64,000 bases of DNA from Sphaerodactylus townsendi (GCF_021028975.2 NC_059426.1:74152001-74216000); one strand, 5' to 3'; numbered from the stretch's first letter, positions 4,489-40,177 are shown. Made by a program: numbers and translations. The notes: generated by a model from the letters alone, not told the origin.

Positions 4489-4552
4489 TCAAAGATCCGT
4501 TTTTGCATGTAAATAGGCTTCAAGCCAGGCATCTCCTGACTCCTTTAGAGAG
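4489..4552 (-). CDS. FADS1: FADS1-like exon 12 (coding part)
   Basis: tttacag|(H)[20 protein letters not shown], with TGA at 4491-4489. Confidence 0.93.
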
Positions 4553-39873: not shown

Positions 39874-40177
39874 AAAAACCTTCCCCATAACAAGGTTTTG
39901 TCCCTTTTCTACTGTATCCATGCAAATGAGAAAACCCTCAATCAAAGAATCTCACCGTAGCATCCTGTCCTGCAAAATGGCTGATGACGCGGCTTCCACC
40001 TGGATGCTGCCGGTAGAAATTGCTGATATCATAAACCTTCCTGTTGATGACCAGCCATTGGTCTTGCTTGGAAGACCCCTGACCTGAGTGAATTCCAATC
40101 TCTTCCCAGGTAAAAAGCTGTGGGATACTGGCACCAGTTTTCGGTTGTCCCAGTGTAGGTTCTGACTGTGGAGCCAT
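4489..40177 (-). CDS. FADS1: FADS1-like front-end fatty acyl-CoA desaturase (cytochrome b5 fusion), 12 coding exons, 453 aa; whole gene span
   Basis: Twelve exons of 222, 111, 198, 102, 129, 58, 77, 98, 97, 80, 126 and 64 nt (1362 nt total) join in frame with AG acceptors and GT/GC donors. HPGG, HDLGH, HNQHH and QIEHH motifs are present. Exon 5 ([24 protein letters not shown]) is FADS1-type. Orthology versus a FADS1-like paralog is unresolved. Confidence 0.93.
5015..5376. mobile_element. truncated MITE / non-autonomous DNA element
   Basis: Shares gaatccccactgag...gatacaaccagg...caaaagaaac with the copy at about 29590. Confidence 0.55.
5591..5716 (-). CDS. FADS1: FADS1-like exon 11
   Basis: cacag|[41 protein letters not shown]|gtaagt, 126 nt. 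Confidence 0.95.
5949..6028 (-). CDS. FADS1: FADS1-like exon 10 (His box 3)
   Basis: ttttag|[26 protein letters not shown](H)|gtgagt, 80 nt. Confidence 0.95.
6450..6546 (-). CDS. FADS1: FADS1-like exon 9
   Basis: ccacag|[32 protein letters not shown]|gtattg, 97 nt. Confidence 0.95.
7510..7640 (-). mobile_element. Penelope-like element terminus with a decayed hammerhead core
   Basis: Minus strand reads cctCTGAAGAtgccagccacagatgcaggcAAAAcgttagg; second copy at 32890. Confidence 0.7.
9767..9864 (-). CDS. FADS1: FADS1-like exon 8
   Basis: ggcag|[32 protein letters not shown](R)|gtaata, 98 nt. Confidence 0.92.
11290..11900 (-). mobile_element. CR1 fragment interrupted by a hAT-like MITE (11605-11803)
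   Basis: CR1 ORF2 3' motifs on both sides; the MITE starts taggatcgcca and ends tggcatcct. Confidence 0.6.
12729..12805 (-). CDS. FADS1: FADS1-like exon 7
   Basis: tctctag|(V)[25 protein letters not shown]|gtacgt, 77 nt. Confidence 0.92.
12893..12923. repeat. (CA)n microsatellite
   Basis: Directly visible in the sequence. Confidence 0.95.
13102..13832 (+). mobile_element. non-autonomous Helitron-like element
   Basis: 5' TC..ataaattgcctaag; 3' hairpin agcccatt...aatgggct followed by CTAG; related copies at 25662 and about 28500. Confidence 0.55.
14985..15190 (-). mobile_element. 5S rRNA-derived SINE
   Basis: 5S-like head on the minus strand (gatcttctcagatatcagaaactaagcag...ttagtatttgga); other copies at 54030 and 55500. 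Confidence 0.6.
15416..15473 (-). CDS. FADS1: FADS1-like exon 6
   Basis: catag|[19 protein letters not shown]+G|gtgag, 58 nt. Confidence 0.93.
16150..16565. repeat. degenerate minisatellite with a 20/21-bp monomer and 61/122-bp higher-order period
   Basis: ggaatgacagtcccta occurs at 16196 and 16318 with six monomers per interval. Confidence 0.75.
16653..16781 (-). CDS. FADS1: FADS1-like exon 5 (His box 2)
   Basis: ttccacag|[43 protein letters not shown]|gtgag, 129 nt. Confidence 0.95.
17740..18130 (-). mobile_element. CR1 LINE 3' end
   Basis: atagaatcat tail and CR1 3' UTR/ORF2 end motifs. Confidence 0.75.
18465..21344. mobile_element. PIF/Harbinger-type non-autonomous element with TAA TSD, split by a nested insertion
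   Basis: 27-bp TIRs gactgtttttgcatggtcaaaatatcc / ggatattttgaccatgcaaaaacggcc; TAA at 18462-64 and 21345-47. Confidence 0.85.
18619..20743. mobile_element. Tc1/mariner-superfamily (Tc2/pogo-like) non-autonomous element with TA TSD and GC-rich interior
   Basis: TIRs ccgtgtttccccgaatataag / cttatattcggggaaacaggg; TA on both sides; subterminal aaataagac repeats. Confidence 0.85.
22558..22582. repeat. (TG)n microsatellite
   Basis: Directly visible in the sequence. Confidence 0.95.
22668..22769 (-). CDS. FADS1: FADS1-like exon 4 (His box 1), with a GC donor
   Basis: ttttcag|[34 protein letters not shown]|gcaagt, 102 nt. Confidence 0.92.
23174..24260 (+). mobile_element. solo LTR, same family as 55752-56822
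   Basis: Starts TA (decayed TG) and ends CA; internal TATA and AATAAA; flanks catgc/catgt (5-bp TSD, 1 mismatch). Confidence 0.75.
25662..26570 (+). mobile_element. Helitron-like element with C-rich interior
   Basis: a|TCtttatacataattggctaag start; 3' gcccatt...aatgggc hairpin. Confidence 0.5.
26560..26740 (+). mobile_element. L1/Tx1 ORF2 C-terminal fragment
   Basis: [16 protein letters not shown]...ERMAY...IWKLFIETY. Confidence 0.6.
28500..29078 (+). mobile_element. Helitron-like element, 3' part
   Basis: C-rich interior like the 25662 copy; ends ccattgcatctc...ggcttttctgCTAG. Confidence 0.45.
29590..30215. mobile_element. MITE, same family as 5015
   Basis: Shares its 5' part with the 5015 copy. 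Confidence 0.5.
32493..32690 (-). CDS. FADS1: FADS1-like exon 3
   Basis: cag|[10 protein letters not shown]...[10 protein letters not shown]...FGTSWVPF...ATAQ|gtaaat, 198 nt. Confidence 0.95.
32890..33000 (-). mobile_element. Penelope-like terminus with a decayed hammerhead core
   Basis: Minus strand reads cctCTGAAAAtgccagccatagatgcaggtGAAAcgttagg. Confidence 0.7.
33310..33930 (+). mobile_element. old L2 LINE RT fragment
   Basis: [22 protein letters not shown], a decayed L2 YADDTQLY motif. Confidence 0.7.
34672..35390 (-). mobile_element. CR1 LINE ORF2 and 3' fragment
   Basis: VRWICNWL...[25 protein letters not shown]...[10 protein letters not shown]; atcatag tail. Confidence 0.85.
35430..35540 (-). 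CDS. FADS1: FADS1-like exon 2
   Basis: cag|[37 protein letters not shown]|gtgag, 111 nt. Confidence 0.95.
36306..36990. mobile_element. hAT-like non-autonomous element(s)
   Basis: cagaggtgtagctag start, internal inverted segments, and a TAGGGTTGCCA-family end near 36985. Confidence 0.45.
37188..37370. other. assembly gap (183 N) in intron 1
   Basis: Run of N. Confidence 1.
37371..37645 (-). mobile_element. Squam3-like tRNA SINE
   Basis: Minus strand A box gtggcatagtggttaagagc and B box gggtttgattccc; near-identical copy at 63790. Confidence 0.75.
38099..38243. mobile_element. palindromic hAT MITE with 8-bp TSD
   Basis: Near-perfect 145-bp palindrome; TSD ctgtagga at 38091-98 and 38244-51. 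Confidence 0.9.
39818..39870. repeat. (CT)n microsatellite near the exon 1 donor
   Basis: Directly visible in the sequence. Confidence 0.95.
39956..40177 (-). CDS. FADS1: FADS1-like exon 1 (cytochrome b5 domain)
   Basis: MAPQ...FTWEEI...[34 protein letters not shown], followed by donor ACG|gtgag. Confidence 0.95.

What the first reader, a model, noticed from the sequence alone, without database searches (positions are those of the whole stretch)
4489..40177. Intact but strongly remodelled FADS1-like desaturase: a candidate squamate paralog with altered specificity
Seen: the reading frame, exon sizes and all metal/heme ligands are intact. Positions that are usually well conserved in vertebrate FADS1 differ (reference sequences recalled from memory): AQAGWLQ to VQYGWFQ before box 1, KWNHLLHHFVIGHLKG to [21 protein letters not shown] to HNQHH in box 2, GPP to VAP in exon 7, FLES to FLQG, and a one-codon-shorter exon 6. 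Established: residues near the His boxes and in the exon-7 region tune regioselectivity in FADS enzymes. Inference: this is a neofunctionalised member of an expanded sauropsid FADS cluster that may make non-standard lipids, for example for the skin barrier or scent glands.
Basis: partly seen in the sequence, partly recalled or inferred. Interest (0 to 1): 0.7.

Follow-up and report, generated by a model that had tools for sequence, protein, structure and literature searches.

The report
Gecko FADS1 duplicate lacking charge pair
This intact gecko gene is an old duplicate of the fatty-acid desaturase FADS1, part of a reptile-and-bird gene expansion already reported in 2012; most of its odd residues are shared with sister copies, but its own lineage swapped a conserved lysine and glutamate for two glutamines, as one crocodilian gene also did, which likely changes the fatty acids it accepts (untested).

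Summary
Observation confirmed. Twelve minus-strand exons (40177-4489) encode an intact 453-aa cytochrome-b5-fused desaturase, identical to an annotated RefSeq protein. It is not the FADS1 orthologue: true FADS1 is the next gene, head-to-head with FADS2, in a six-gene FADS1-type array, and an AU test rejects grouping with FADS1 (p=4e-5). The expansion was published in 2012 with unknown function. Most listed changes are not specific to this gene: HNQHH, the lost His in exon 4 and the one-residue shortening are shared with other squamate, crocodilian and bird copies, and sister genes are about as remodelled. 'GPP to VAP' is misregistered (best alignment GPP to APG). What is specific is a gecko-plus-cordylid clade with coupled K211Q and E335Q, repeated in one crocodilian gene; the two positions also covary among distant desaturases, though mostly by descent. 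FADS1-type residues remain at the rat delta-6/delta-5 switch sites (list partly recalled), but an exon-7 regioselectivity position differs. The gene has no CpG island, and orthologue RNA depth varies between three runs. Altered substrate preference is plausible but untested; I found no evidence for skin or glands. The scan had no earlier finding on it.

The parts
39956..40177 (-). coding exon 1 (222 nt; ATG; cytochrome b5 domain, HPGG at 40006-39995)
35430..35540 (-). exon 2 (111 nt)
32493..32690 (-). exon 3 (198 nt; predicted TM1-TM2)
22668..22769 (-). exon 4 (102 nt; His box 1; last codon is Q211; followed by a GC donor)
22668..22670 (-). codon Q211 (K in 20 of 20 canonical FADS1); first half of the clade-defining pair
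16653..16781 (-). exon 5 (129 nt; His box 2 HNQHH; FADS1-type P214, S216, M221, M240, H241, L251)
15416..15473 (-). exon 6 (58 nt; also 58 in paralogues C, E, F; 61 in FADS1, FADS2 and paralogue D)
12729..12805 (-). exon 7 (77 nt; APG for GPP; I287 at the fourth position of the FxxQ/YxxN regioselectivity motif, Y in 20 of 20 canonical FADS1)
9767..9864 (-). exon 8 (98 nt; Y328 aligns with FADS2 Leu323)
6450..6546 (-). exon 9 (97 nt; FLQG, QMNH)
6534..6539 (-). codons Q335-G336 (E-S in 20 of 20 canonical FADS1); Q335 is the second half of the clade-defining pair
5949..6028 (-). exon 10 (80 nt; His box 3 QIEHH)
5591..5716 (-). exon 11 (126 nt)
4489..4552 (-). coding part of exon 12 (64 nt with stop; four codons longer than in the other gecko orthologues)
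3539..4488 (-). likely 3' UTR; AATAAA candidates at 4394, 3990 and 3539
   Evidence: motifs; RNA reads of another organism label over 3800-4681

Best explanation
The gene is an intact member of an old gecko-plus-cordylid branch of the sauropsid FADS1 duplicates, and it likely works as a tissue-restricted membrane desaturase that keeps a delta-5-like register but has a reshaped substrate tunnel and so likely prefers acyl chains other than FADS1's 20:3n-6/20:4n-3. Shown: gene structure, intact metal and heme ligands, paralogy, age (shared by four gecko families and a cordylid), retention in all these lineages, and the residue patterns. Inferred from family knowledge: an ER enzyme in which the fused cytochrome b5 passes electrons to a di-iron site held by the His boxes. 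Inferred here: K211 (end of the helix before His box 2) and E335 (TM4) form a charge pair across the tunnel base in animal FADS. This lineage replaced it by Q-Q, and also changed S336, P278, Y287 and H209, which would widen or depolarise the tunnel while true FADS1 next door keeps making arachidonic acid.
For: Paralogy and synteny: FEN1, then five FADS1-like genes, then FADS1 head-to-head with FADS2. Trees: the clade of gecko rows plus Hemicordylus has 100/99 support, and monophyly with sauropsid FADS1 is rejected, p-AU 3.9e-5. Constraint: 8 of 8 clade members keep all five ligand motifs at 71-93% identity; pairwise dN/dS against paralogues is 0.10-0.18, with dS near saturation. Pair: positions 211 and 335 are the only two of 453 columns whose residue pattern is exactly this clade plus one alligator gene, and that gene is not otherwise like this clade (36-41% in exons 6-8). 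In 216 vertebrate rows there are 180 K/E, 16 Q/Q, 1 Q/N, no Q/E and no K/Q (isoforms included). In 87 distant representatives the pair ranks 9 of 41,905 by MI-APC and each position is the other's top partner. In the model, 211 ends helix 196-211 and 335 lies in helix 321-347; in SCD1 the Gln147-Thr261 bond links the two sides of the tunnel base (PMC8533217, passages). Delta-5-type residues are kept at the switch sites (PMC6194568 and PMC7072455 passages). The exon-7 position 277/280 motif switches regioselectivity in fish Fads2 (PMC7501227 passage), and its fourth position is changed here. There is no CpG island in the 64-kb window, whereas FADS1, FADS2 and paralogues D, E and F start in one. 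Orthologue-like RNA depth over exon 5 and the 3' UTR differs more than tenfold among three runs read to a similar extent.
Against: No activity was measured, and no solved FADS structure exists to map residues. The model has pLDDT 41-62 over residues 221-280 and gave no coordinates, so a 211-335 contact is not shown. The covariation is largely phylogenetic: there are only 2 independent pairs among vertebrates and 4 on starred branches among representatives, sign test p 0.5. Thirteen of 216 rows lost K211 but kept E335. Q at 211 (20 of 87) and N at 223 (62 of 87) are common in distant desaturases, so they need not signal a new function. Sister paralogues are as diverged, so relaxed constraint across the array could explain much. 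The RNA runs are of another organism label, unstranded and without tissue names, and the UTR holds a repeat.
Confidence: 0.5

Rival explanations
1. It is an ordinary delta-5 desaturase kept for dosage or for expression in another tissue or stage. The substitutions are tolerated drift, and K211Q/E335Q is a neutral compensatory swap.
For: FADS1-type residues remain at positions aligned with rat Ser209, Asn211, Arg216, 235/236, Gln245 and 344, with an aromatic residue at Leu323 (the site list is partly recalled). dN/dS is well below 1 in all pairs. The CpG-poor start suggests that regulation changed. Q211 and N223 occur in many distant desaturases.
Against: 22 of 176 FADS1-invariant positions are changed, against 3 in the FADS1 gene. 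The changes cluster near His box 2, exon 7 and TM4. They have been fixed since geckos and cordylids split, and the same pair changed in a crocodilian gene.
Confidence: 0.3
2. It has shifted regioselectivity (delta-6, -4, -8 or a methyl-end or sphingoid position), as FADS3 did after duplication from FADS2 (FADS3 activity recalled).
For: The fourth residue of the exon-7 motif is I instead of Y, and two substitutions there switch fish Fads2. Two of three Hemicordylus genes of this clade carry Arg at the Arg216-equivalent.
Against: There is no YxxN motif, and no delta-6-type S209, N211, R216, L236 or Q245 in the gecko protein. Paralogue D, not this gene, has the delta-6-type residues.
Confidence: 0.14
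3. It is a decaying or catalytically weak copy.
For: W198Q and G336 are private to this species, and the C-terminus is four residues longer. A decayed FADS remnant lies in the same array.
Against: The frame and ligands are intact in 8 of 8 clade members. The end branch is short (0.047-0.052). Near-identical RNA reads exist in a related organism.
Confidence: 0.06

Closest known systems
Sauropsid Fads1 expansion (Fads1a-e; Castro et al. 2012, PMC3285190; abstract passage, find passages and section 5 read)
   Same: Tandem FADS1-derived genes in the FADS cluster of birds and reptiles; that paper reports three in chicken and five in anole, with unknown function. This gene sits in the same array and nests in the same radiation.
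   Different: The four anole genes I saw fall in the FADS1, E/F and C clades, and none in this clade. I could not map the paper's letters because its accession table was not among the two supplements held as text. The passages read give no residue analysis or assay of the duplicates.
Vertebrate FADS1 (acyl-CoA (8-3)-desaturase, delta-5)
   Same: Domain order, 12-exon plan, ligands, and delta-5-type residues at the switch sites; 65% identical to this genome's FADS1.
   Different: Not the orthologue. 22 of 176 invariant positions are changed, it is one residue shorter in the exon 6-7 segment, it has no CpG island, and K211/E335 are lost.
Bird and crocodilian FADS1-like genes with HNQHH (e.g. chicken XP_426408.2, P0179)
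   Same: Sister group of this clade plus squamate clade C (45 rows, SH-aLRT 99; 100/99 in the careful tree). They share N223, the lost H209, A276, the shortening and Y328.
   Different: They keep K211 and E335 (11 of 11) and have M/L rather than Y at 180.
Crocodilian FADS1-like gene P0071/P0173 (alligator, saltwater crocodile; gharial partial)
   Same: Also Q211, Q335 and HNQHH.
   Different: It lies in another branch of the radiation and has no shortening, so the shared pair looks convergent.
Teleost delta-4 Fads2 (YxxN) and delta-6 FADS2 (FxxQ)
   Same: The same exon-7 motif position varies.
   Different: Here the motif is FxxI, which is neither type, and the gene derives from FADS1.

Membership tests
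Front-end fatty acyl desaturases (FADS) | N-terminal cytochrome b5 domain with HPGG | tested here: met
   Pfam PF00173 E 5e-23; HPGG at residues 58-61; the model matches cytochrome b5
Front-end fatty acyl desaturases (FADS) | HxxxH, HxxHH and QxxHH boxes in a PF00487 domain | tested here: met
   Pfam E 1.6e-33; motifs present in 8 of 8 clade rows; VIA-align AlkB Z 13.8 (rmsd 4.6, 275 aligned) and SCD1 Z 7.0 (rmsd 5.3, 202 aligned)
Front-end fatty acyl desaturases (FADS) | Measured desaturation of an acyl chain | not testable with these tools
   needs heterologous expression
FADS1 1:1 orthologues | Head-to-head position next to FADS2 | tested here: not met
   the neighbouring gene A holds that position
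FADS1 1:1 orthologues | One clade with sauropsid FADS1 | tested here: not met
   AU test p 3.9e-5, log-likelihood 188.8 lower (the group was named after the quick tree had been seen)
FADS1 1:1 orthologues | Delta-5-type residues at the rat D6/D5 switch positions | tested here: met
   P214, S216, M221, M240, H241, L251, P349; Y328 where FADS1 mostly has F. The site list is partly recalled; the source paper was not held
FADS1 1:1 orthologues | Delta-5 activity on 20:3n-6 / 20:4n-3 | not testable with these tools
   no assay
Sauropsid Fads1 expansion (PMC3285190) | Tandem position in the FADS cluster and descent from FADS1 | tested here: met
Sauropsid Fads1 expansion (PMC3285190) | Identity with one of the named genes a-e | tested here: inconclusive
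   accession table not available; the four anole genes seen lie in other clades
Delta-4 Fads2 type | YxxN motif in exon 7 | tested here: not met
   FxxI; motif defined in PMC6671994 passages
Delta-6 FADS2 type | S209, N211, R216, L236, Q245 and FxxQ | tested here: not met
   none present; this genome's FADS2 has all of them

The most novel reading that the evidence does not exclude
Geckos and girdled lizards on one side and crocodilians on the other independently turned a FADS1 duplicate into the same new enzyme by removing the K211-E335 charge pair. The enzyme desaturates non-PUFA chains (saturated, very long or sphingoid) for skin or gland secretions. The pair would then be a general specificity switch of animal front-end desaturases.
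Probability: 0.13. Interest if true: 0.72.

Novelty: new variant of a known kind. Interest (0 to 1): 0.4.

Why it matters
Why reptiles and birds keep several FADS1 copies has been open since 2012, and my ten paper searches found no assay of any of them. This work sorts the copies into clades and separates inherited changes from lineage-specific ones. It also names a two-residue pair that can be swapped in a yeast assay. If the pair sets substrate choice, it adds a determinant to the few known for front-end desaturases and a route to reptile-specific lipids. If it does not, this is an ordinary member of a known, uncharacterised expansion.

Tried and rejected
1) Uniqueness of the remodelling: rejected, because sister clades share most changes and are as diverged. 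2) 'GPP to VAP': rejected by gap-placement scoring. 3) My first guess that Leu323 of rat FADS2 is the L of FLES: wrong, it aligns with Y328. 4) RefSeq isoform X2 as real alternative splicing: unlikely. Its last exon is exon 12 of paralogue C, 144 kb away, and C's exon 11 is garbled in the assembly where two runs' contigs disagree by 12 letters and 28 gap letters. 5) Gene conversion as the source of the crocodilian pair: not supported by exon-wise identity, but not excluded for the short exon 4/5 junction. 6) Structure: no solved FADS by sequence; Foldseek listed only cytochrome b5 domains; no coordinates were available to measure contacts. 7) Branch-site dN/dS was not possible, as I had no orthologue coding DNA; only paralogue pairs with saturated dS were compared. 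8) Expression: no RNA holder was listed in the index; the three raw RNA runs carry no tissue label. 9) More non-gecko members: a search with the Hemicordylus core (best 120 of 300 listed) and the full-length search (best 120 of 1447) showed none from lacertoids, anguimorphs, iguanians, snakes or the skink Tiliqua. A 131-aa tegu fragment clustered with Hemicordylus has E335 and is not a member. Tuatara and dibamids were not seen. 10) The careful 97-row tree did not finish; the careful tree has 34 rows. 11) Literature: ten searches found no assay or tissue study of the duplicates. The library lacks most subscription journals, and Watanabe 2016 and Lim 2014 were not seen. A goose preen-gland transcriptome paper has no mention of fads or desaturase in its main text (PMC12557934; supplements not checked). 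12) Earlier scan notes: three look-ups, nothing relevant.

Full report
Observation. The twelve exons lie on the minus strand from 40177 to 4489 and join into an open frame of 453 codons. The protein is letter for letter P0121, which RefSeq annotates as 'acyl-CoA (8-3)-desaturase-like isoform X1' of the gecko Sphaerodactylus townsendi. Pfam finds a cytochrome b5 domain and a desaturase domain. HPGG, the three His boxes and the QMNH histidine are intact. Intron 4 has a GC donor. Gap scoring maps GPP to APG rather than VAP and puts the missing residue inside exon 7. Paralogue D shows that arrangement directly (exons of 61 + 74 nt), whereas B, C, E and F have 58 + 77. I infer a deletion in exon 7 plus a one-codon shift of intron 6; this is not shown.

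Surroundings. A search with exon 5 found 7 matches among 10 candidates, all on one contig, and a full-length search put all 57 matches in the same 0.56 Mb. The order is FEN1 (XPG_N and XPG_I domains; name recalled), a decayed plus-strand FADS remnant, five FADS1-like genes that I call F, E, D, C and B (B is the window gene), then gene A, head-to-head with FADS2. Gene A has the canonical motifs and changes only 3 of 176 FADS1-invariant positions. It is the FADS1 orthologue, and B is a paralogue 65% identical to it.

Phylogeny. Of 126 proteins then held, 104 were aligned. I dropped 14 of them (isoforms, partial or aberrant models, unnamed Logan rows) and added 7 own-genome proteins, giving 97 rows. 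The quick tree and a careful 34-row tree agree. B groups with six other gecko proteins (Euleptes, Eublepharis, Heteronotia, Paroedura, Gekko and one unnamed) and Hemicordylus. This clade is sister to a large squamate clade containing C, and both are sister to a crocodilian-plus-bird clade that includes chicken 'FADS1-like' XP_426408.2. Forcing B's clade together with sauropsid FADS1 is rejected (p-AU 3.9e-5). FADS2, a single long row, was the outgroup. Hemicordylus has three genes of the clade. No other squamate family showed a member in the listed hits, which suggests loss but is limited by the listing.

How special is the remodelling? Mostly it is inherited. N223 occurs in 8 of 8 B, 26 of 26 C, 9 of 11 archosaur and 0 of 20 canonical rows. 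Y180 occurs in 8 of 8 B and 26 of 26 C. H209 is lost in all 58 rows of B, C, archosaur and E/F. The shortening occurs in all 64 rows of B, C, archosaur, E/F and D. W198Q is in 1 of 8 (H in Euleptes, W in six). FADS1-invariant positions changed: B 22 of 176, D 24, E 19, F 15, C 25 of 148, a songbird copy 20, an alligator copy 23. Distances from the common node are A 0.21, B 0.69, C 0.75, D 0.54, E 0.59 and F 0.46. The whole array is remodelled, and B is typical of it. Pairwise dN/dS is 0.10-0.18 for B with dS of 1.5-2.7, so it shows long-term constraint only.

What is specific. E335Q and K211Q are each in 8 of 8 clade rows and in only 1 of the other 89, the same alligator protein; no other column has this pattern. 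With more rows (216, isoforms included) there are 180 K/E, 16 Q/Q, 1 Q/N, 13 hydrophobic/E, 1 K/K and 5 with a gap, and crocodile shares Q/Q. Among 87 near-full-length representatives at 50% identity (of 150 listed), the pair ranks 9 of 41,905 by MI-APC. K/R goes with D/E in 18 rows, K/R occurs alone in 7, D/E alone in 1, and neither in 61. Much of this is shared descent, and tree-independent tests are not significant (p 0.5). The AlphaFold model (mean pLDDT 73.5) puts 211 at the end of the helix before His box 2 and 335 in the last membrane helix, and it matches membrane di-iron enzymes. In SCD1 a Gln147-Thr261 bond spans the tunnel base (PMC8533217, passages). Counting from the His boxes (SCD1 numbering recalled), 211 falls within one residue of Gln147, but 335 lies about one turn beyond Thr261. 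A K211-E335 salt bridge is therefore a reasonable inference, not a result.

Known specificity sites. I could not obtain Watanabe et al. 2016. Citing papers name Arg216, Trp244, Gln245 and Leu323 as near the substrate and S and M/L as delta-5 signatures (PMC7072455 and PMC6194568, passages); the rest of the list (209, 211, 235, 236, 344) is recalled. Gecko FADS2 has S209, N211, R216, L236, Q245 and L323 at those numbers, which supports the register. B has the FADS1 residue at 209, 211, 216, 235, 236, 245 and 344, and Y at 323. In the exon-7 motif (FxxQ or YxxN; PMC6671994 and PMC7501227, passages), canonical FADS1 ends in Y (20 of 20) and B in I, but most sister clades also differ there. This favours a retained delta-5-like register with altered chain acceptance over a delta-6 or delta-4 switch.

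Expression. FADS1, FADS2, D, E and F begin in CpG islands. B and C do not (GC 0.42, CpG o/e 0.19 and 0.18), and the whole window has none; that such promoters tend to be tissue-restricted is general knowledge. Three raw RNA runs of another organism label were read to 1.6-1.7 Gb each. Mean depth, both mates summed, in the bin holding exon 5 was 0.9, 2.7 and 13.3, and over 4241-4681 it was 0.02, 3.8 and 11.1; some reads differ by only one letter. An orthologue is thus probably transcribed unevenly, but no tissue is given. Only the exon 10-11 joint was listed, mostly from paralogue-like reads, in a truncated table. Nothing here bears on skin or glands.

Comparison and verdict. The expansion is known, with 'unknown functional consequences' (PMC3285190). 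Other mentions found were protein-coding differences in FADS1L1/L2 between willow warbler subspecies (bioRxiv 2021.04.05.438456, passage) and a variable garter-snake 'fatty acid desaturase 1' contig with Ka/Ks above 1 (PMC3014983, passage), which may be collapsed paralogues (my inference). The ten searches listed under Tried and rejected found no assay and no description of this clade or of the pair. The gene is real, old and probably functional. Best explanation 0.5; ordinary delta-5 0.3; shifted regioselectivity 0.14; decaying 0.06. Interest 0.4.

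Noticed in passing
G000:C2:73902874-73939037 (paralogue D; L042-L046): A FADS1-derived gene with delta-6-type residues at the rat switch sites (S209 in 6 of 6, N211 in 5 of 6, H or R at 216), also present in turtles and other squamates. It may be a better candidate for shifted regioselectivity than the window gene.
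   Followed up: partly
G000:C2:74012500-74012680 (L035:528-652, paralogue C exon 11): Frameshifted in the assembly, but contigs of two runs disagree exactly there, so this is likely an assembly error. It probably explains the truncated RefSeq model of C and the X2 isoform of the window gene, which borrows C's exon 12.
   Followed up: yes
G000:C2:73721440-73723920 (+ strand, L065/L064): Orphan exon 10 (frameshifted) and an intact-looking exon 12 of a decayed FADS gene between FEN1 and paralogue F. It is possibly the clade kept in Euleptes, other lizards and birds, which is otherwise absent from this genome.
   Followed up: partly
G000:C2:73749513-73812366 (paralogues E, F): A younger gecko duplication (83% identical, dN/dS 0.30). 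E has G for L just before E335, and further changes in that helix, shared with a Euleptes protein.
   Followed up: no
P0004, P0168, P0170 (Hemicordylus): Three genes of the window gene's clade. Two carry Arg at the Arg216-equivalent, and one has Q/N instead of Q/Q at the pair.
   Followed up: partly
window 44172-48919, + strand: A LINE-type element about 4 kb upstream of the start codon: a 300-aa first ORF, then endonuclease (PF03372) and reverse transcriptase (PF00078) split over three frames. It is flanked by 94-99% inverted repeat arms at 42912-43339 and 51284-51716.
   Followed up: no
window 16192-16496: A degenerate 61-bp tandem repeat in intron 5.
   Followed up: no
G000:C2:73688800-73698900: About 10 kb of G/C-run low-complexity sequence that reads as huge ORFs on both strands; probably an assembly artefact.
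   Followed up: no
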